Shown here: positions 12,739 through 49,088 of the stretch, piece by piece
How the letters are laid out: every line of letters begins with the position of its first letter
Position numbering within the stretch: position 1 is the stretch's first letter
Assembly: GCF_003334255.1 (NCBI RefSeq)
Contig: NZ_QOWU01000011.1
DNA from: Escherichia coli
Lineage (GTDB): Bacteria; Pseudomonadota; Gammaproteobacteria; Enterobacterales; Enterobacteriaceae
DNA: 64,000 nucleotides
Direction: 5' to 3' (one strand)
The notes under the pieces: generated by a model
What the model saw: only the letters and a program-made list of their open reading frames with translations
Database searches by the model: none
What the model was told of the DNA's origin: nothing
Made by a program: the position numbers and the translations under genes

Positions 12739-13890
12739 TTACCAGGCGGTATGGTAAAGCTCTACAATATCCTCAAGCGTTGCTTCACGCGGGTTGCCAC
12801 CGGTACAAACATCATCCAGTGCCGCCTGCGCCAGTGCCGGAATGTCTTCCTTGCGTACACCAACATCACGCAAATGTGGCGGAATACCGACATCACGGTT
12901 GAGAGCAAACACCGCTTCAACAGCGGCATTACGCGCCTCTTCCAGGCTCATACCTTCCACTTTCACGCCCATAACGCGCGCGATATCGCGGTACTTCTCA
13001 CCGGTAAAGTCAGCGTTATAACGCATGACATGCGGTAACAGGATGGCGTTCGCAACACCGTGTGGAGTGTTATAAAACGCGCCCAGTGGATGCGCCATAC
13101 CATGCACCAACCCTAACCCAACATTCGAGAAGCCCATACCCGCAACATACTGCCCGAGCGCCATTTCTTCTCCGGCATCCTTATCACCAGCAACCGATCC
13201 TCGCAGCGCCCCAGCAATGATTTCAATCGCTTTAATGTGCAGTGCATCGGTTAGCGCCCACGCGCCACGGGTAATATACCCCTCAATAGCATGAGTGAGC
13301 GCATCGACACCCGTCGCAGCTTTCAGCGCTGGAGGCATACCATCCATCATGTCAGCGTCAATAAACGCCACCTGCGGGATATCATGCGGATCAACGCAAA
13401 CAAACTTGCGCCGTTTCTCTTCGTCAGTGATCACGTAGTTAATGGTCACTTCTGCCGCAGTACCTGCTGTGGTAGGAATTGCCAGAATCGGTACACTGGG
13501 TTTATTGGTCGGGGAAAGCCCTTCCAGGCTACGCACATCGGCAAACTCCGGGTTGTTGCTGATAATGCCAATCGCTTTACAAGTATCCTGTGGAGAACCA
13601 CCACCAATAGCGATCAGGTAATCCGCGCCGCTATTCTGGAATACACCGAGCCCTTCTTTGACGACAGTAATTGTTGGGTTGGGCACTACGCCGTCGTAAA
13701 TCGCCCATGCCAGCCCTGCAGCATCCATCTTATCGGTCACTTTCGCCACCACGCCGCATTGCACCAGCGTTTTATCGGTGACGATCAGCGCCTTCTGATA
13801 ACCACGGCGTTTCACCTCATCGGTTAAAGCCCCAACAGCACCCCGACCAAACCATGCCGTTTCGTTCAGAATCATTCTGTTAGCCATCAT
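12739..13890 (-). CDS. fucO: L-1,2-propanediol oxidoreductase (lactaldehyde reductase), iron-type ADH
   Basis: ORF MMANRMILNETAWFGRGAVGAL...; true start may be the second Met at 13887 (382 aa). Confidence 0.9.
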   Translation of the reverse strand: MMANRMILNETAWFGRGAVGALTDEVKRRGYQKALIVTDKTLVQCGVVAKVTDKMDAAGLAWAIYDGVVPNPTITVVKEGLGVFQNSGADYLIAIGGGSPQDTCKAIGIISNNPEFADVRSLEGLSPTNKPSVPILAIPTTAGTAAEVTINYVITDEEKRRKFVCVDPHDIPQVAFIDADMMDGMPPALKAATGVDALTHAIEGYITRGAWALTDALHIKAIEIIAGALRGSVAGDKDAGEEMALGQYVAGMGFSNVGLGLVHGMAHPLGAFYNTPHGVANAILLPHVMRYNADFTGEKYRDIARVMGVKVEGMSLEEARNAAVEAVFALNRDVGIPPHLRDVGVRKEDIPALAQAALDDVCTGGNPREATLEDIVELYHTAW

Positions 13891-13914: not shown

Positions 13915-14562
13915 TTACTCTTCAATTCGTAACCCATAGGTTTTGAATTTCTCCAGCACTACGGCAATCTCTTCATCGCTCAGCACTGGCACCGGGTCCG
14001 TAATCGCCAGGGTCGTCAGGTAAAGTTGCGCCAGCACTTCAACTTCATGCGCCAGCCATAACGCTTTTTCCAGATTCACCTCACAAGCGATAAGCCCATG
14101 ATGTTGTAACAAAGTTGCCTTACGATTTTTGAGAGCCAGCGCAACATGTTCAGAAAGTTCGCGTGTTCCAAAGGTCGCATAAGGCGCGCAAGGAATAGAA
14201 TTACCGCCAGCCGCCGCAATCATGTAGTGAATAGCGGGGATCGATCGGTTAAGAATGGAAACTGCCGTGCAATGAACGGCATGATTGTGAACAACCGCGT
14301 TGGCATCCGGTCTGCTTTGATAGGCTGCCATATGGAAACGCCATTCGCTTGAGGGGAGCTTTCCTTCCTCATGTTTACCGTTGCCATCAATAAAGACAAT
14401 ATGCGACTCCGTCAGTTTTTCATATGGAATGCCTGTAGGCGTAATCAGCATCCCATCCTGATAACGTACACTGACGTTCCCCGCTGTCCCCTGGTTCAGT
14501 CCCAGGCGGGTCATTTCCAGGCAAGTGTCAATAATCTGACGAGCAAGTTTATTTCGTTCCAT
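13915..14562 (-). CDS. fucA: L-fuculose-phosphate aldolase (class II)
   Basis: 215 aa ORF MERNKLARQIIDTCLEMTRLGLNQGTAGNVSVR... Confidence 0.9.
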   Translation of the reverse strand: MERNKLARQIIDTCLEMTRLGLNQGTAGNVSVRYQDGMLITPTGIPYEKLTESHIVFIDGNGKHEEGKLPSSEWRFHMAAYQSRPDANAVVHNHAVHCTAVSILNRSIPAIHYMIAAAGGNSIPCAPYATFGTRELSEHVALALKNRKATLLQHHGLIACEVNLEKALWLAHEVEVLAQLYLTTLAITDPVPVLSDEEIAVVLEKFKTYGLRIEE

Positions 14563-15108
14563 TAGCTACCTCTCTCTGATTCAAAACAGGGCAATAATGT
14601 TGTTCCTTTCACACTATTGAATTAGCCGTTTAATTACCCACCATCTTCTTCCTGATTAACAAGAAAGAAATTCACAAGCTTATATTTTGTGACCTGGTTC
14701 AACTAATCACAGTAAATAACTGCAAGTTCTCTTTTTATAACCCCATTAAAAATGACCGCTCTTAAAAATATTTATCAAAACGGTCATTTTTCTATTCCTC
14801 CAAGCCCGGAATGACCGTTTTCGGCACAAACAATTAATACGGTCATCTGATTTGTGTTTTTTATGATTTATTTTCTGAAACGGGCATGAAATTTCGATTA
14901 TTAAAGTGATGGTAGTCACATAAAGTCACCTTCTAGCTAATAAGTGTGACCGCCGTCATATTACAGAGCGTTTTTTATTTGAAAATGAATCCATGAGTTC
15001 ATTTCAGACAGGCAAATATTCACTGATATGAAGCCCGAACTCGCTGGTTTTGCACTTTTGAAAACATAACCGATTACGTGCTTAAGCTTCTGAACCTAAG
15101 AGGATGCT
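14563..15108. promoter_or_regulatory. Divergent fucAO / fucPIKUR control region with CRP-like sites and TGACCG repeats
   Basis: 546 bp AT-rich gap between divergent operons; CRP-like TGTGAcctggtTCAAC at 14688-14703 and aGTGAtggtagTCACA at 14905-14920; TGACCG/CGGTCA repeats at 14753, 14781, 14812, 14840, 14947. Confidence 0.6.
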
Positions 15109-16425
15109 ATGGGAAACACATCAATACAAACGCAGAGTTACCGTGCGGTAGATAAAGATGCAGGGCAAAGCAGAAGTTACATTATTCCATTCGCGCTGCT
15201 GTGCTCACTGTTTTTTCTTTGGGCGGTAGCCAATAACCTTAACGACATTTTATTACCTCAATTCCAGCAGGCTTTTACGCTGACAAATTTCCAGGCTGGC
15301 CTGATCCAATCGGCCTTTTACTTTGGTTATTTCATTATCCCAATCCCTGCTGGAATATTGATGAAAAAACTCAGTTATAAAGCAGGGATTATTACCGGGT
15401 TATTTTTATATGCCTTGGGTGCTGCATTATTCTGGCCCGCCGCAGAAATAATGAACTACACCTTATTTTTAGTTGGCCTATTTATTATTGCAGCCGGATT
15501 AGGTTGTCTGGAAACTGCCGCAAACCCTTTTGTTACGGTATTAGGGCCGGAAAGTAGTGGTCACTTCCGCTTAAATCTTGCGCAAACATTTAACTCGTTT
15601 GGCGCAATTATCGCGGTTGTCTTTGGGCAAAGTCTTATTTTGTCTAACGTGCCACATCAATCGCAAGACGTTCTCGATAAAATGTCTCCAGAGCAATTGA
15701 GTGCGTATAAACACAGCCTGGTATTATCGGTACAGACACCTTATATGATCATCGTGGCTATCGTGTTACTGGTCGCCCTGCTGATCATGCTGACGAAATT
15801 CCCGGCATTGCAGAGTGATAATCACAGTGACGCCAAACAAGGATCGTTCTCCGCATCGCTTTCTCGCCTGGCGCGTATTCGCCACTGGCGCTGGGCGGTA
15901 TTAGCGCAATTCTGCTATGTCGGCGCACAAACGGCCTGCTGGAGCTATTTGATTCGCTACGCTGTAGAAGAAATTCCAGGTATGACTGCAGGCTTTGCCG
16001 CTAACTATTTAACCGGAACCATGGTGTGCTTCTTTATTGGTCGTTTCACCGGTACCTGGCTCATCAGTCGCTTCGCACCACACAAAGTCCTGGCCGCCTA
16101 CGCATTAATCGCTATGGCACTGTGCCTGATCTCAGCCTTCGCTGGCGGTCATGTGGGCTTAATAGCCCTGACTTTATGCAGCGCCTTTATGTCGATTCAG
16201 TACCCAACAATCTTCTCGCTGGGCATTAAGAATCTCGGCCAGGACACCAAATATGGTTCGTCCTTCATCGTTATGACCATTATTGGCGGCGGTATTGTCA
16301 CTCCGGTCATGGGTTTTGTCAGTGACGCGGCGGGCAACATCCCCACTGCTGAACTGATCCCCGCACTCTGCTTCGCGGTCATCTTTATCTTTGCCCGTTT
16401 CCGTTCTCAAACGGCAACTAACTGA
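15109..16425 (+). CDS. fucP: L-fucose:H+ symporter (MFS)
   Basis: 438 aa ORF MGNTSIQTQSYRAVDKDAGQSRSYIIPFALLCSLFFLWAVANNLNDILLPQF... Confidence 0.9.
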   Translation: MGNTSIQTQSYRAVDKDAGQSRSYIIPFALLCSLFFLWAVANNLNDILLPQFQQAFTLTNFQAGLIQSAFYFGYFIIPIPAGILMKKLSYKAGIITGLFLYALGAALFWPAAEIMNYTLFLVGLFIIAAGLGCLETAANPFVTVLGPESSGHFRLNLAQTFNSFGAIIAVVFGQSLILSNVPHQSQDVLDKMSPEQLSAYKHSLVLSVQTPYMIIVAIVLLVALLIMLTKFPALQSDNHSDAKQGSFSASLSRLARIRHWRWAVLAQFCYVGAQTACWSYLIRYAVEEIPGMTAGFAANYLTGTMVCFFIGRFTGTWLISRFAPHKVLAAYALIAMALCLISAFAGGHVGLIALTLCSAFMSIQYPTIFSLGIKNLGQDTKYGSSFIVMTIIGGGIVTPVMGFVSDAAGNIPTAELIPALCFAVIFIFARFRSQTATN

Positions 16426-18341: not shown

Positions 18342-19760
18342 ATGAAACAAGAAGTTATCCTGGTACTCGACTGTGGCGCGACCAATGTCAGGGCCATCGC
18401 GGTTAATCGGCAGGGCAAAATTGTTGCCCGCGCCTCAACGCCTAATGCCAGCGATATCGCGATGGAAAACAACACCTGGCACCAGTGGTCTTTAGACGCC
18501 ATTTTGCAACGCTTTGCTGATTGCTGTCGGCAAATCAATAGTGAACTGACTGAATGCCACATCCGCGGTATCGCCGTCACCACCTTTGGTGTGGATGGCG
18601 CTCTGGTAGATAAGCAAGGCAATCTGCTCTATCCGATTATTAGCTGGAAATGTCCGCGAACAGCAGCGGTTATGGACAATATTGAACGGTTAATCTCCGC
18701 ACAGCGGTTGCAGGCTATTTCTGGCGTCGGAGCCTTTAGTTTCAATACGTTATATAAGTTGGTGTGGTTGAAAGAAAATCATCCACAACTGCTGGAACGC
18801 GCGCACGCCTGGCTCTTTATTTCGTCGCTGATTAACCACCGTTTAACCGGCGAATTCACTACTGATATCACGATGGCCGGAACCAGCCAGATGCTGGATA
18901 TCCAGCAACGCGATTTCAGTCCGCAAATTTTACAAGCCACCGGTATTCCACGCCGACTCTTCCCTCGTCTGGTGGAAGCGGGTGAACAGATTGGTACGCT
19001 ACAGAACAGCGCCGCAGCAATGCTCGGCTTACCCGTTGGCATACCGGTGATTTCCGCAGGTCACGATACCCAGTTCGCCCTTTTTGGCGCTGGTGCTGAA
19101 CAAAATGAACCCGTGCTCTCTTCCGGTACATGGGAAATTTTAATGGTTCGCAGCGCCCAGGTTGATACTTCGCTGTTAAGTCAGTACGCCGGTTCCACCT
19201 GCGAACTGGATAGCCAGGCAGGGTTGTATAACCCAGGTATGCAATGGCTGGCATCCGGCGTGCTGGAATGGGTGAGAAAACTGTTCTGGACGGCTGAAAC
19301 ACCCTGGCAAATGTTGATTGAAGAAGCTCGTCTGATCGCGCCTGGCGCGGATGGCGTAAAAATGCAGTGTGATTTATTGTCGTGTCAGAACGCTGGCTGG
19401 CAAGGAGTGACGCTTAATACCACGCGGGGGCATTTCTATCGCGCGGCGCTGGAAGGGTTAACTGCGCAATTACAGCGCAATCTACAGATGCTGGAAAAAA
19501 TCGGGCACTTTAAGGCCTCTGAATTATTGTTAGTCGGTGGAGGAAGTCGCAACACATTGTGGAATCAGATTAAAGCCAATATGCTTGATATTCCGGTAAA
19601 AGTTCTCGACGACGCCGAAACGACCGTCGCAGGAGCTGCGCTGTTCGGTTGGTATGGCGTAGGGGAATTTAACAGCCCGGAAGAAGCCCGCGCACAGATT
19701 CATTATCAGTACCGTTATTTCTACCCGCAAACTGAACCTGAATTTATAGAGGAAGTGTGA
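18342..19760 (+). CDS. fucK: L-fuculokinase (FGGY kinase family)
   Basis: ORF 18312..19760; start set at ATG 18342 ([21 protein letters not shown]...) because AGGAG lies 7 nt upstream and the 18312 ATG sits in the loop of a palindrome; 18312 start (482 aa) not excluded. Confidence 0.85.
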
Positions 19761-20184: not shown

Positions 20185-20241
20185 TCTCATACCGGTACGC
20201 CCGCATGACGCGGGCGGTTATCGAATGATGGGGTGAAAAAT

Positions 20242-20973
20242 ATGAAAGCGGCACGCCAGCAAGCGATAGTCGACCTGCTGCTGAACCATACCAGCCTGAC
20301 CACGGAAGCTCTCTCTGAACAGCTAAAGGTCAGTAAAGAAACCATTCGTCGCGATCTCAATGAATTACAGACGCAGGGTAAAATTCTGCGCAATCATGGA
20401 CGCGCTAAATATATCCACCGTCAAAATCAAGACAGTGGCGATCCCTTTCACATCAGGCTGAAAAGCCATTATGCGCATAAAGCAGATATCGCGCGCGAGG
20501 CGCTCGCGTGGATTGAAGAAGGGATGGTGATAGCCTTAGACGCCAGTTCAACTTGCTGGTATCTGGCACGCCAGTTGCCTGACATCAACATTCAGGTCTT
20601 CACCAATAGCCATCCGATTTGCCATGAACTCGGTAAACGCGAACGCATTCAACTGATCAGTTCCGGCGGCACACTTGAGCGCAAATATGGCTGTTACGTC
20701 AATCCCTCGCTGATTTCCCAACTTAAATCGCTGGAAATCGATCTGTTTATTTTTTCTTGTGAAGGGATCGATAGCAGCGGCGCACTGTGGGACTCCAATG
20801 CGATCAACGCTGATTACAAATCGATGCTATTAAAACGTGCCGCGCAATCGTTGTTATTGATTGATAAAAGTAAATTTAATCGTTCAGGGGAAGCCCGCAT
20901 CGGGCATCTGGATGAGGTAACGCACATTATTTCTGATGAGCGCCAGGTTGCAACTTCTTTGGTAACAGCCTGA
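20242..20973 (+). CDS. fucR: DeoR-family activator of the fucose regulon
   Basis: ORF 20233..20973 trimmed to MKAARQQAIVDLLLNHTSLTTEALSEQLKVSKETIRRDLNEL (243 aa); DeoR HTH. Confidence 0.85.
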   Translation: MKAARQQAIVDLLLNHTSLTTEALSEQLKVSKETIRRDLNELQTQGKILRNHGRAKYIHRQNQDSGDPFHIRLKSHYAHKADIAREALAWIEEGMVIALDASSTCWYLARQLPDINIQVFTNSHPICHELGKRERIQLISSGGTLERKYGCYVNPSLISQLKSLEIDLFIFSCEGIDSSGALWDSNAINADYKSMLLKRAAQSLLLIDKSKFNRSGEARIGHLDEVTHIISDERQVATSLVTA

Positions 20974-46841: not shown

Positions 46842-49088
46842 CTATAACCCTCCGCGAATCAGCCCGCCCATGCCGCGACGCTCCATAAAGGCTGCAACCT
46901 GATGGCGAACTTCGGTCGCCAGTTGCGCTTCCAGACTACGCTGCGCAAGATTTTCTGCTTCGGCATAATCAATGCGCCGCAGCAGGTATTTTGCCCGCGC
47001 TACAGAACGTCCGTTCATAGACAGATGGCGATACCCAAGCCCAATGAGGATTGCCACGCACATGGGATCGCCCGCCATTTCACCGCACAAACGGAGATCG
47101 ATTCCATGTATTTCCGCTTCCCGGGCGATCATCGCCAGAGCTCGTAACATTGCAGGATGAAGACTGTCATAAATGTTCGCCACCCGGGTATTGTTGCGAT
47201 CAACGGCCAGAATGTATTGAGTCAGATCGTTGGTGCCAACAGAGATGAAATCGACCCGCTTTGCCAGATGCGGCAGCATAAATACCATTGACGGCACTTC
47301 CAGCATGATGCCGATACGTGGTTTGGGAATTTCGTAACCGATCATCTCCTCGACTTCACGTCCGGCACGTTCAATCAGGCGGCGTGCTTCATCAACTTCA
47401 TCGAGGCTTGTGACCATCGGCAACAGAATATTCAGGTTGCCCGTAGCGGCATTAGCACGCAGCATCGCCCGCACCTGGATCAAGAAGATCTCCGGCTGAT
47501 CGAGCGTAATGCGAATCCCACGCCAACCCAGGCATGGATTCTCTTCGCTGATCGGCATGTAAGGCAGCTGCTTATCTGCTCCGACATCCAGCGTACGCAA
47601 GGTGACGGGTTTATCATTGAACATTTGCAGCATCCCCTGATACTGCGCCACCTGTTCTTCTTCCGACGGGAAACCACTTTGCAGCATGAATGGGATTTCA
47701 GTGCGATAAAGACCGATGCCATCAATACGGCTGCCCAGTTTTTCTTCATGTTCCGGGCTTAAACCAGCATTGAGCATGACTTTTATACGCTCACCGCTTT
47801 TTAACTGCGCGGGTAAATTGACGTCATCTTCCGCCAGACGGCTAAGCTCAATCTCTTCACTAATTAGCCGCTGATATTCTTGCAGCAGTACCGGCTCCGG
47901 ATCGACCAGCAATTCACCGCGATAGCCATCAACGATCAGCGTCCTACGATGCAGCACCGAAGGCTGAATATCCGCGCCCATCACGGTAGGGATCCCCAGC
48001 GCACGTACCATGATCGCAGCATGGGAGTTGGCTGCGCCATCTCGCACGACAACACCGACTAAGCGATCCTGGGGCAGCTCAGCAAGCGTTGTCGCTGACA
48101 GTTCATCTGCCACCAGAATGAAACGTTCCGGCCAGGCGTTCGGCCCTTGATTAGCGTCATCAAGATGAAACAGCAATCGCTGACCCAGCGCACGTAAATC
48201 GCCAGCCCGCTCTTTGAGATAGTTATCACTTAGCGCGGCAAACTGTTCGGCAAATTTTTCAATGACCGTTTTTACCGCCCACTCTGCCACCGAGCCTTTA
48301 TCAACCTCGGCAAACAATTCGCGACGCAGCCGGGTGTCCGAAAGCAGGTGCGAGTAAAGATCGAAAATAGCCGCCGTTTCTTTTTGTGCACCGGCGGCAA
48401 AGCGTTTGCTGTAGCGGCGAAACTCGTTTGCCGCTTCTTCCAGCGCCCCGGTCAGTCGTTCGCGTTCCAGAGCCGGATCCAGCGTTGATGCCTGATACAC
48501 CTGTTCCATTAAAGGTAACGTGGCATCCTGCCAGCCTTCGGCAATCGCCACACCAGGTGCTGCCGGTAATGCGCGGATTCGCGTCTGGCGATATTGCCCA
48601 AACAAGGCAGTCAACTGCGACTGAGAAAGAATAGCTGCCATCTGGGTGGCAAGCGTCACCAGGAAGGATTCTTCACTTTCGTCATACTGGCGCAACTCTC
48701 GTTGCTGTACCACCAGTACACCAAGCAACTGGCGACGTTGAATAATTGGTACGCCTAAAAACGCGCGGAAACGTTCTTCTTTTACGGAGGGGATGTATTT
48801 GAAGCTGGGGTGCTTTTGCGCATCTGCAAGGTTTATCGGTTCCGCCAGCCTGCCAACCAGGCCGACGATCCCTTCATCAAACGCGAGCGTTACAGTGCGA
48901 CCGCGTGGTTTTTTCAGCCCCCGGGTCGCCATCAGGTAGTAACAACGTCGATCATGATCGGCCAGGTAGACCGAACAGACCTCGGTATCCATCGCAAGAC
49001 AGATGTCGGTAACCAGAATATTTAACGCCTCATTCAGGCGTGGTGCGCTGGCTACCTTTTCGACTATTTCGCGCAGGCGAGTGAGCAT
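46842..49088 (-). CDS. ptsP: Nitrogen-PTS enzyme I (GAF domain + PEP-utilising enzyme I)
   Basis: 748 aa ORF MLTRLREIVEKVASAPRLNEALNILVTDICLAM...; active-site His region GAANSHAAIMVRALGIPTV. Confidence 0.9.
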   Translation of the reverse strand: MLTRLREIVEKVASAPRLNEALNILVTDICLAMDTEVCSVYLADHDRRCYYLMATRGLKKPRGRTVTLAFDEGIVGLVGRLAEPINLADAQKHPSFKYIPSVKEERFRAFLGVPIIQRRQLLGVLVVQQRELRQYDESEESFLVTLATQMAAILSQSQLTALFGQYRQTRIRALPAAPGVAIAEGWQDATLPLMEQVYQASTLDPALERERLTGALEEAANEFRRYSKRFAAGAQKETAAIFDLYSHLLSDTRLRRELFAEVDKGSVAEWAVKTVIEKFAEQFAALSDNYLKERAGDLRALGQRLLFHLDDANQGPNAWPERFILVADELSATTLAELPQDRLVGVVVRDGAANSHAAIMVRALGIPTVMGADIQPSVLHRRTLIVDGYRGELLVDPEPVLLQEYQRLISEEIELSRLAEDDVNLPAQLKSGERIKVMLNAGLSPEHEEKLGSRIDGIGLYRTEIPFMLQSGFPSEEEQVAQYQGMLQMFNDKPVTLRTLDVGADKQLPYMPISEENPCLGWRGIRITLDQPEIFLIQVRAMLRANAATGNLNILLPMVTSLDEVDEARRLIERAGREVEEMIGYEIPKPRIGIMLEVPSMVFMLPHLAKRVDFISVGTNDLTQYILAVDRNNTRVANIYDSLHPAMLRALAMIAREAEIHGIDLRLCGEMAGDPMCVAILIGLGYRHLSMNGRSVARAKYLLRRIDYAEAENLAQRSLEAQLATEVRHQVAAFMERRGMGGLIRGGL

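What the first reader, a model, noticed from the sequence alone, without database searches (positions are those of the whole stretch)
14745..14960. Alternating TGACCG / CGGTCA repeats in the divergent fucAO-fucPIKUR control region: candidate FucR operator array
The hexamer TGACCG or its complement recurs five times in about 200 bp (about 14753, 14781, 14812, 14840, 14947), partly embedded in longer matches (aaTGACCGctctt, aCGGTCAttttt, aaTGACCGttttc, aCGGTCATctg, gTGACCGccgtcat). DeoR-family regulators such as FucR typically bind multiple repeated half-sites. Two CRP-like sites lie in the same region.
Basis: seen in the sequence. Interest (0 to 1): 0.45.

Follow-up and report, generated by a model that had tools for sequence, protein, structure and literature searches.

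The report
Known FucR operator sites, fuc regulon
The repeated TGACCG/CGGTCA hexamers between the E. coli fucose genes are real binding sites for the fucose activator FucR, already published, except that one of the five belongs to a CRP site and one genuine variant site was missed.

Summary
All five hexamers are at the stated coordinates. About 0.1 would be expected in this AT-rich 546-bp spacer. The window is the E. coli fucAO/fucPIKUR control region.

Four hexamers (14753, 14781, 14812, 14840) fit the published FucR motif (..AAACGG[T/G]CATT). Two of them are the sites OFucR3 and OFucR2, whose mutation lowered fucose induction of PfucAO (Zhang et al. 2024).

The fifth hexamer (14947) lies inside the published CRP site OCrp0. 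It scores poorly as a FucR site, and its CCG is not conserved.

A true fifth site, CGGGCA at 14881, was missed. It reads CGGTCA in most other genera.

In 47 Enterobacterales fucA-fucP spacers the sites form rigid inverted pairs, TGMCCG-N22-CGGKCA. This pattern occurs 71 times in 1.35 Mb, always upstream of fucA. Site 5 lies exactly 29 bp from OCrp1 in 36 of 36 spacers. The linker between the two pairs varies.

The fixed 28-bp half-site spacing and the two-module layout are the only parts I did not find in the literature I could read.

The parts
14751..14765 (-). FucR site 1 = published OFucR3 (ttaagagCGGtCAtt on the fucA strand; core 14753-14758). Left half of inverted pair 1. Centre 60 bp from the OCrp2 centre, at -130.5 from the PfucAO start.
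   Evidence: Exact match to the published sequence. Its mutation cut induced PfucAO activity more than 50-fold (PMC11011485). Conserved as TGMCCG in most genera. PWM rank 5 of 127,962 positions.
14774..14788 (+). FucR site 2 (atcaaaaCGGTCAtt; core 14781-14786). Right half of inverted pair 1. Its sequence is not given in either paper I could read.
   Evidence: Best PWM score in the whole window, with a matrix trained without Escherichia. Conserved as CGGKCA in all 23 aligned genera. Lies 28 bp from site 1. The published -206 truncation removes it and keeps about 70% of PfucAO activity.
14810..14824 (-). FucR site 3 = published OFucR2 (ccgaaaaCGGtCAtt; core 14812-14817). Left half of inverted pair 2.
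   Evidence: Exact match. Mutation lowered induced PfucAO activity by about 30%. Conserved as TGMCCGTTT. PWM rank 7.
14833..14847 (+). FucR site 4 (attaataCGGTCAtc; core 14840-14845). Right half of inverted pair 2. Centre 70 bp from the OCrp1 centre.
   Evidence: PWM rank 2. Conserved as CGGKCA. Lies 28 bp from site 3 and 41 bp from site 5.
14874..14888 (+). FucR site 5, a variant core CGGGCA (14881-14886; tctgaaaCGGGCAtg). Centre 29 bp from the OCrp1 centre.
   Evidence: Aligned column reads aaaCGGTCAt in most genera and CGGGCA in Escherichia, Kluyvera and others. Found 41-42 bp after pair 2 in 36 of 47 spacers, and exactly 29 bp from OCrp1 in 36 of 36. Direct repeat of site 2 (D1). PWM rank 13.
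14748..14791 (.). Inverted pair 1 (TGACCG-N22-CGGTCA, 14753-14786), extended in E. coli to a 44-bp palindrome. Part of module A, whose position is fixed relative to the fucAO promoter.
   Evidence: Inverted repeat I1, 22-nt arms, 82% complementary, no gap. Pattern match. OCrp2-to-site-1 distance is 59-60 bp in 24 spacers.
14812..14845 (.). Inverted pair 2 (TGACCG-N22-CGGTCA). Part of module P, whose position is fixed relative to site 5, OCrp1 and OCrp0.
   Evidence: (I6). A pair with at most one mismatch is present in 45 of 47 spacers.
14942..14963 (.). CRP site OCrp0 (aagTGTGAccgccgTCATAtta). It is not a FucR site.
   Evidence: Identical to the published, mutated OCrp0 (PMC11894529). TGTGA and TCATA are conserved, while the CCG varies (CCG 17, CCA 10, CTG 6, TTC 5, CAA 2). 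FucR PWM score 0.6, rank 368.
14902..14923 (.). CRP site OCrp1 (taaaGTGAtggtagTCACAtaa), centre 14912.5, 40 bp from OCrp0.
   Evidence: The sequence matches the CRP consensus and is strongly conserved. The papers place OCrp1 on the fucA side of the IS5 target CTAG.
14685..14706 (-). CRP site OCrp2, essential for PfucAO, centred at -70.5.
   Evidence: Exact match to the published sequence. Conserved.
14595..14616 (-). CRP site OCrp3 in the fucA 5' untranslated region (accessory).
   Evidence: Exact match to the published sequence.
14625..14625 (-). PfucAO transcription start (5'RACE, 63 nt upstream of the fucA ATG).
   Evidence: PMC11011485. The base on the minus strand is C, as published.
14933..14936 (.). 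IS5 target CTAG (-374 to -371 from the fucA ATG), between OCrp1 and OCrp0.
   Evidence: PMC11894529. Coordinates checked.
13915..14562 (-). fucA (L-fuculose-phosphate aldolase), first gene of fucAO.
15109..16425 (+). fucP (fucose permease), first gene of fucPIKUR.
20242..20973 (+). fucR, the DeoR-family L-fucose operon activator that reads the sites.
   Evidence: NCBIfam NF007720, 508 bits against a cut-off of 259. Pfam HTH_DeoR plus DeoRC.

Best explanation
The hexamers at 14753, 14781, 14812 and 14840, plus a variant CGGGCA at 14881, are the operator array of FucR, the DeoR-family activator of the fucose regulon.

Each site is an asymmetric element of about 12 bp, AAAACGG(T/G)CATT, of the size one winged-helix domain reads. 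When FucR carries its inducer fuculose-1-phosphate it occupies the array. Together with cAMP-CRP at the flanking CRP sites it switches on the two weak, divergent promoters PfucAO and PfucPIKUR.

Shown by others: sites 1 and 3 are needed for fucose induction of PfucAO, and that induction requires CRP at OCrp2.

Shown here:
- All five sites are conserved across Enterobacterales.
- Sites 1+2 and 3+4 are inverted pairs with an invariant 22-bp spacer.
- Pair 1 keeps a fixed distance to OCrp2.
- Pair 2 and site 5 keep fixed distances to OCrp1 and OCrp0.
- The linker between the two pairs varies.

Inferred, at about 0.55:
- One FucR oligomer (a dimer or a dimer of dimers) contacts both halves of a pair across AT-rich DNA.
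- The array is therefore two promoter-anchored modules.
- Sites 4 and 5 are the main FucR input to PfucPIKUR.

The hexamer at 14947 is not part of the array. It is the TGTGA-proximal half of CRP site OCrp0.
For: - Locus identity.
- FucR family.
- Published consensus, and mutagenesis of OFucR2 and OFucR3, which map exactly to 14810-24 and 14751-65.
- Enrichment.
- Conservation of five CGGKCA columns in a 23-genus alignment.
- In 47 spacers, adjacent '< >' sites are 28 bp apart 67 times and 29 bp apart 4 times; '> >' spacing is 41-42 bp 36 times.
- TGMCCG-N22-CGGKCA occurs 71 times in 1.35 Mb, all within 800 bp upstream of fucA and none elsewhere. Spacers of 8-44 bp other than 22-23 give 0 or 1 inside that zone.
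- Site 5 to OCrp1 is 29 bp in 36 of 36 spacers. OCrp2 to site 1 is 59-60 bp. The inter-pair linker is 12 or 24-31 bp.
- A matrix trained without Escherichia ranks the five sites 1, 2, 5, 7 and 13 of about 128,000 window positions.
- Citrobacter-type loci, where fucA follows a LacI-type regulator and an ABC transporter, have no pairs.
- No sigma-70 consensus promoter in the spacer, as expected for activator-dependent promoters.
Against: - No direct FucR-DNA binding data for sites 2, 4 and 5 were available to me. The DAP-seq paper is not held, and the 2025 paper calls the fucPIKUR-side operators 'putative'.
- Against the pair as an obligatory unit: the published -206 truncation ends at window 14768. 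It keeps only site 1 (the left arm of pair 1) and still gives about 70% of induced PfucAO activity. Site 2 is therefore dispensable in that reporter.
- A 28-bp centre-to-centre distance is about 2.7 helical turns, so the two half-sites do not face the same side of straight B-DNA.
- The oligomeric state of FucR is unknown to me.
Confidence: 0.85

Rival explanations
1. The sites are FucR sites, but each works alone and by orientation. Sites whose CGGTCA reads towards fucA (14753, 14812) serve PfucAO, and those reading towards fucP (14781, 14840, 14881) serve PfucPIKUR. On this view the inverted 'pairs' are only two interleaved sets of directional sites.
For: - The two sites validated for PfucAO both point towards fucA.
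- The -206 truncation, with site 1 alone, keeps about 70% of activity.
- The authors assign two operators to each promoter.
- Both same-orientation sets are 59 bp apart in E. coli.
Against: - Across 47 spacers the only invariant distances are within a pair (28 bp, 67 times). The distance between same-orientation sites changes with the variable linker (12, 24-31 bp).
- Site 2 therefore keeps no fixed distance or helical phase to the fucP promoter, nor site 3 to the fucA promoter. That is hard to square with independent, directional activation.
Confidence: 0.3
2. The cluster is a chance or compositional effect of a hexamer that is common in E. coli DNA.
For: TGACCG is twice as frequent in the window as shuffles predict (62 against 31.6).
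Against: - The spacer is AT-rich and expects 0.11 copies. Four or more arose in 0.005% of simulations.
- The sites share longer flanks, are conserved across genera, and two have a mutant phenotype.
Confidence: 0.01
3. The repeats are read by another protein (CRP half-sites, SrsR, a nucleoid protein), or they act as a DNA cruciform or an RNA structure rather than through FucR.
For: - One hexamer (14947) really is part of a CRP site.
- Pair 1 is a 44-bp palindrome that could extrude as a cruciform.
- The region is AT-rich and described as transcriptionally repressed.
Against: - The motif equals the FucR consensus obtained in vitro, as quoted.
- The mutant phenotype appears only under fucose induction.
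- The pairs occur only next to fucA in loci that also carry fucR, and are absent where a LacI-type regulator replaces that context.
- The array lies between the PfucAO start (14625) and the fucP promoter, so it should not be transcribed.
- No Rfam match.
- Spacer sequences are not conserved as a stem would be.
Confidence: 0.03

Closest known systems
Published FucR operators OFucR2 and OFucR3 and the FucR DAP-seq consensus (Baumgart et al. 2021 as quoted by Zhang et al. 2024, PMC11011485; 'OR0-OR3' in Zhang et al. 2025, PMC11894529)
   Same: Same protein, same locus, same core CGG(T/G)CA with an A-rich 5' flank. Sites 1 and 3 here are identical to OFucR3 and OFucR2.
   Different: The papers give sequences for only two sites and count four in all, two of them 'putative'. 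The comparative data here show five conserved sites, a fixed N22 inverted-pair geometry and two promoter-anchored modules. I did not find these in the texts I could read. Figures are not held, so I cannot say which of sites 2, 4 and 5 are OR0 and OR1.
GlpR and DeoR operators of E. coli (DeoR/GlpR family; from my own knowledge, not tested here)
   Same: Same regulator family (HTH_DeoR plus DeoRC). Several operators per control region, oligomeric regulators, sugar-phosphate effectors.
   Different: Those proteins are repressors released by their effector, and they read contiguous 16-20-bp palindromes with half-sites about 8-10 bp apart. FucR is an activator that needs its effector, and its half-sites are 28 bp apart, centre to centre.
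Sugar-specific activator plus CRP at weak promoters (AraC/CRP at araBAD, RhaS/RhaR with CRP, MelR/CRP at melAB; from my own knowledge)
   Same: A pathway-specific activator and CRP are both required. The promoters lack consensus elements. A shared divergent control region.
   Different: In those systems the specific activator sits next to the -35 element and CRP lies upstream. Here CRP is promoter-proximal (OCrp2 at -70.5; OCrp0 and OCrp1 next to the fucP promoter), and FucR lies further upstream, at -130 or beyond for PfucAO. FucR probably works through CRP, as Zhang et al. propose.
CRP binding site (for the 14947 hexamer only)
   Same: TGTGA-N6-TCATA, identical to the published OCrp0, whose mutation abolished the IS5 fusion promoter.
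   Different: None. It is that site.

Membership tests
FucR operator (E. coli fuc regulon) | Matches the published FucR consensus (A-rich flank, CGG, T/G, CA, T) | tested here: met
   Sites 1-5 read gagCGGTCAtt, aaaCGGTCAtt, aaaCGGTCAtt, ataCGGTCAtc and aaaCGGGCAtg. Consensus quoted. The 14947 copy reads cggCGGTCAca and scores 0.6.
FucR operator (E. coli fuc regulon) | Lies in the control region of FucR-dependent operons, in a genome that encodes FucR | tested here: met
   fucA/fucP spacer. fucR at 20242-20973 reaches the NCBIfam equivalog cut-off.
FucR operator (E. coli fuc regulon) | Mutation of the site reduces fucose-dependent activation | not testable with these tools
   Published for sites 1 and 3 only (PMC11011485). 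No data for sites 2, 4 and 5. The -206 truncation suggests site 2 is dispensable for PfucAO.
FucR operator (E. coli fuc regulon) | Direct binding of FucR (footprint, EMSA, DAP-seq peak) | not testable with these tools
   The DAP-seq paper is not held. Only its consensus, as quoted, was available.
FucR operator (E. coli fuc regulon) | Conserved in orthologous fuc control regions and absent elsewhere | tested here: met
   Five conserved columns. 45 of 47 spacers have a pair. 71 of 71 N22 pairs lie upstream of fucA in 1.35 Mb. FucR identity goes down to 60%.
Classical DeoR/GlpR-type operator (contiguous palindrome, half-sites about 8-10 bp apart) | Two half-sites adjacent within 16-20 bp | tested here: not met
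   Each site is asymmetric: CGGTCA and its complement agree at 2 of 6 positions. The partner lies 28 bp away. The family description comes from my own knowledge.
CRP site (for the hexamer at 14947) | 22-bp site with TGTGA-N6-TCACA symmetry, with the conservation falling on those pentamers | tested here: met
   aagTGTGAccgccgTCATAtta is the published OCrp0. The pentamers are conserved and the CCG varies.
Dispersed repeat (REP/BIME, transposon end) | Copies at many unrelated loci | tested here: not met
   No N22 pair outside the fuc spacer in the window or in 80 loci.
Structured RNA element | Transcribed, with a match to an RNA family or compensatory changes in a stem | tested here: not met
   No Rfam match at E <= 1. 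The array lies upstream of both promoters. The spacer has low information content.

The most novel reading that the evidence does not exclude
FucR reads a rigid 34-bp inverted repeat (AATGMCCGTTTT-N14-AAAACGGKCATT) whose half-sites are 28 bp apart. This geometry is unlike the contiguous palindromes of DeoR and GlpR.

The fuc control region would then be two promoter-anchored modules joined by a free linker:
- OCrp2, site 1, site 2
- site 3, site 4, site 5, OCrp1, OCrp0

Site 2, the best-scoring site, and site 5, fixed 29 bp from OCrp1, would be functional operators that have not been studied. Site 5 would be the key FucR input to PfucPIKUR.
Probability: 0.5. Interest if true: 0.35.

Novelty: already known. 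Interest (0 to 1): 0.18.

Why it matters
As a scan result this is a correct rediscovery. FucR operators with a CGGTCA core in this spacer were proposed from DAP-seq in 2021, and two were validated by mutation in 2024. It does not open a new question.

The comparative result is a modest refinement. It covers five conserved sites, an invariant 22-bp spacer within pairs, an invariant 29 bp from site 5 to OCrp1, and a variable linker between the modules. It offers clear, cheap tests of how a DeoR-family activator cooperates with CRP at two divergent promoters. It also shows which sites to mutate on the still 'putative' fucPIKUR side.

It may also help people who use the fuc promoter as a fucose biosensor, or who study IS5 activation of fucAO.

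Tried and rejected
- A strong matrix hit inside fucK (19494-19513), upstream of fucU and fucR, looked like a possible autoregulatory site. It encodes EKIGHF, the glycine third base drifts freely, and only 6 of 50 orthologues keep CGGKCA. Rejected as chance.
- A hit at 48257-48276 lies inside a 748-codon ORF and has no N22 partner. Rejected.
- The sigma-70 and terminator scan of the spacer found nothing. This is uninformative beyond showing that the promoters are weak.
- Rfam at E <= 1 found nothing.
- The PDB sequence search with FucR gave no hit at E <= 0.001, so there is no structural guide to the distance between the helix-turn-helix domains.
- The DAP-seq paper (Nat Methods 2021) is not held. 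The positions of the 'putative OR0 and OR1' appear only in figures, so I could not map them.
- The fucose biosensor paper has no operator information.
- One literature search failed for lack of capacity. Its repeat gave nothing specific on wide-spaced DeoR-family operators.
- I considered that the sites serve promoters purely by orientation. I kept this as the main rival rather than rejecting it.

Full report
**Observation.** Reading the window shows TGACCG at 14753-58, 14812-17 and 14947-52, and CGGTCA at 14781-86 and 14840-45, exactly as reported.

- The hexamer is generally common in this window: 62 copies against 31.6 in shuffles.
- No other place has more than 2 copies per 100 bp or 3 per 200 bp. 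With the 62 copies placed at random, the chance of 4 or more in 100 bp is 0.008.
- The spacer is 546 bp at 36% G+C, against 52% for the window. First-order Markov simulations of it expect 0.11 copies, gave 4 or more in 0.005% of 20,000 runs, and never gave 5.

**Locus.** The window is the E. coli fuc regulon.

- fucO is at 12739-13890 (-) and fucA at 13915-14562 (-).
- The spacer is 14563-15108.
- fucP starts at 15109, followed by fucI, fucK and fucU. fucR is at 20242-20973.
- FucR reaches the NCBIfam equivalog 'L-fucose operon activator' at 508 bits against a cut-off of 259. It has HTH_DeoR and DeoRC domains.

**What is already published.** Zhang et al. 2024 (PMC11011485) quote a FucR consensus from the DAP-seq study of Baumgart et al. 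2021, with CGG and CA as the most conserved bases.

- They name two sites, OFucR2 (ccgaaaaCGGtCAtt) and OFucR3 (ttaagagCGGtCAtt). Mutating OFucR3 lowers fucose-induced PfucAO activity more than 50-fold, and mutating OFucR2 lowers it by about 30%.
- These sequences map exactly to window 14810-24 and 14751-65 on the fucA strand.
- The same paper places the PfucAO start 63 nt upstream of the fucA ATG (window 14625, C on the minus strand). It validates CRP sites OCrp2 (14685-14706) and OCrp3 (14595-14616).
- Zhang et al. [quoted passage not shown] They give OCrp0 as taaTaTGAcggcggTCACActt, which is window 14942-14963.

**The fifth hexamer.** The copy at 14947-52 is the TGA of the CRP pentamer TGTGA plus the next three bases of OCrp0.

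- It lacks the A-rich 5' and T-rich 3' flanks of the other four.
- It scores 0.6 with a FucR matrix, rank 368 in the window.
- In orthologous spacers TGTGA and TCATA are fixed, while the three bases after TGTGA vary (CCG 17, CCA 10, CTG 6, TTC 5, CAA 2). CGG is the most conserved part of the FucR motif, so this copy is a by-product of the CRP site.

**Comparative evidence.** A scan of one genome per species with FucA returned 80 loci. Forty-six of them have the divergent fucA/fucP arrangement with fucR downstream. FucR identity runs from 98% down to 60%, from Escherichia to Yersinia and Photorhabdus.

- A 23-genus alignment shows five conserved blocks of the form aaaCGG(T/G)CAtt.
- The fifth is at window 14881-86. 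It reads CGGGCA in E. coli and CGGTCA in most other genera.
- The repeat finder independently reports this fifth site as a direct repeat of site 2 (D1). It also reports pair 1 as a 44-bp palindrome, 14748-14791, 82% complementary.
- A position matrix built only from non-Escherichia half-sites ranks sites 2, 4, 1, 3 and 5 at places 1, 2, 5, 7 and 13 among 127,962 window positions.

**Architecture.** With the degenerate core, adjacent sites in the order TGMCCG then CGGKCA are 28 bp apart, start to start, 67 times, and 29 bp apart 4 times. Two successive CGGKCA sites are 41-42 bp apart 36 times.

- The pattern TGMCCG-N22-CGGKCA occurs 71 times in 1.35 Mb (the window plus 80 loci). All 71 lie within 800 bp upstream of fucA and none lies elsewhere. 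Spacers of 8-44 bp other than 22-23 give 0 or 1 matches inside that zone and 0-8 chance matches outside it.
- In the window the pattern occurs twice, against 0.02 expected.
- Site 5 lies exactly 29 bp, centre to centre, from OCrp1 in 36 of 36 spacers where both are found. OCrp2 lies 59-60 bp from site 1 in 24 spacers.
- The distance from the right half of pair 1 to the left half of pair 2 takes the values 12, 24, 26, 27, 28, 29, 30 and 31 bp.
- Information content is high in the hexamers and in CCGTTTT/AAAACGG, and low in the middle of the spacers.

I read this as two modules, each fixed to one promoter, joined by a linker without helical phasing: OCrp2, site 1, site 2; and site 3, site 4, site 5, OCrp1, OCrp0.

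**Natural negative control.** In Citrobacter-type loci, fucA follows a LacI-family regulator, a ribose-type ABC transporter and an FGGY kinase on the same strand. These loci have no pairs upstream of fucA or anywhere else in the locus. Edwardsiella loci have a different transporter but keep fucR, and they keep the pair-plus-site-5 layout.

**Mechanism.**

- Shown by others: FucR and CRP are both needed; OCrp2 is essential; site 1 is essential for induction and site 3 is accessory. The authors propose that FucR helps CRP to bind, and CRP then recruits RNA polymerase.
- Consistent here: neither promoter matches the sigma-70 consensus. The FucR sites lie upstream of the CRP sites, with site centres at -130.5 to -258.5 from the PfucAO start.
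- Inferred: each pair is contacted by one FucR oligomer, and sites 4 and 5 feed PfucPIKUR.
- If the fucP start is the T at 14994, OCrp0 sits at -41.5, OCrp1 at -81.5 and site 5 at -110.5. I infer this start from class II spacing. The papers show it only in a figure.

**Evidence against an obligatory pair.** The published truncations end at -270 (window 14832, sites 1-3, full activity), -206 (window 14768, site 1 only, about 70%) and -166 (no induction). Site 2 is therefore dispensable for PfucAO in that reporter, even though it is the best-conserved and best-scoring site. The main rival is that the sites act singly and by orientation. The variable linker argues against that rival, because it removes any fixed phase between site 2 and the fucP promoter, and between site 3 and the fucA promoter. 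I put the pair model at about 0.55 and the identification of the sites as FucR operators at 0.95 or above.

**Comparison with known systems.** Membership in 'FucR operator' is met for motif, location and conservation. It rests on published mutagenesis for two sites, and direct binding could not be tested here. Relative to the family prototypes DeoR and GlpR (my own knowledge), FucR differs in being an inducer-dependent activator and in having half-sites 28 bp apart instead of a contiguous palindrome. A dispersed-repeat origin and an RNA element are excluded.

**Verdict.** The finding is real, correctly interpreted and already known. The corrections are that one hexamer belongs to CRP site OCrp0 and that one variant site (14881) was missed. 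The only part I did not find in the literature I could read is the conserved N22 pair geometry and the modular layout. That is a modest refinement which gives direct experimental tests.

Noticed in passing
L081 (E. coli strain c1-17, NZ_CP189959.1); insertion point about window 15143: An IS1B element sits in the 5' end of fucP, about codon 12, in a human blood isolate. RefSeq annotates a shortened fucP after it. This differs from the classical IS5 insertion at CTAG 14933-36 that activates fucAO.
   Followed up: partly
L031 1634-8648 (Citrobacter youngae CCUG 30791), and similar loci L032-L039, L054, L061: A second kind of fucA-fucO locus. fucA is preceded on the same strand by a ribose-type ABC transporter, an FGGY pentulose kinase and a LacI/FruR-type regulator, with fucI about 7 kb away. 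There are no FucR-type pairs. It is probably a different sugar regulon that borrows a FucA/FucO pair.
   Followed up: partly
window, whole 64 kb: TGACCG and its complement are twice as frequent as dinucleotide shuffles predict (62 against 31.6, with no shuffle above 41). Nearly all copies are in coding DNA. This is probably a codon-pair effect (e.g. CTG-ACC-G) and is unrelated to FucR.
   Followed up: no
window 14300-15400 against 5,426 complete E. coli genomes: 189 genomes have no match to this region. A further 179 match at only 80-90% identity and 15 at 60-80%. The fuc control region is therefore absent or strongly divergent in a minority of E. coli lineages.
   Followed up: no
window 14970-15003: The block ttttttatttgaaaatgaatccatgagttcat, just downstream of OCrp0, is almost invariant across genera, more so than a -10 element alone would need. 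It probably covers the fucP -10, the transcription start and the beginning of a 115-nt leader. Further conserved patches (gaactcac, about 15034; cttctgaac, about 15087) lie in that leader, where an SrsR site has been proposed.
   Followed up: no
window 20233-20241: The mechanical ORF for fucR starts at a GTG three codons upstream of the ATG (20242). The ATG gives the 243-residue protein that matches the NCBIfam model end to end.
   Followed up: yes
window 19494-19513 and 48257-48276: Two single high-scoring FucR-matrix hits lie inside coding regions (fucK and a 748-codon ORF). The fucK hit is explained by the peptide EKIGHF and is not conserved at the DNA level. The second has no partner half-site.
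   Followed up: yes
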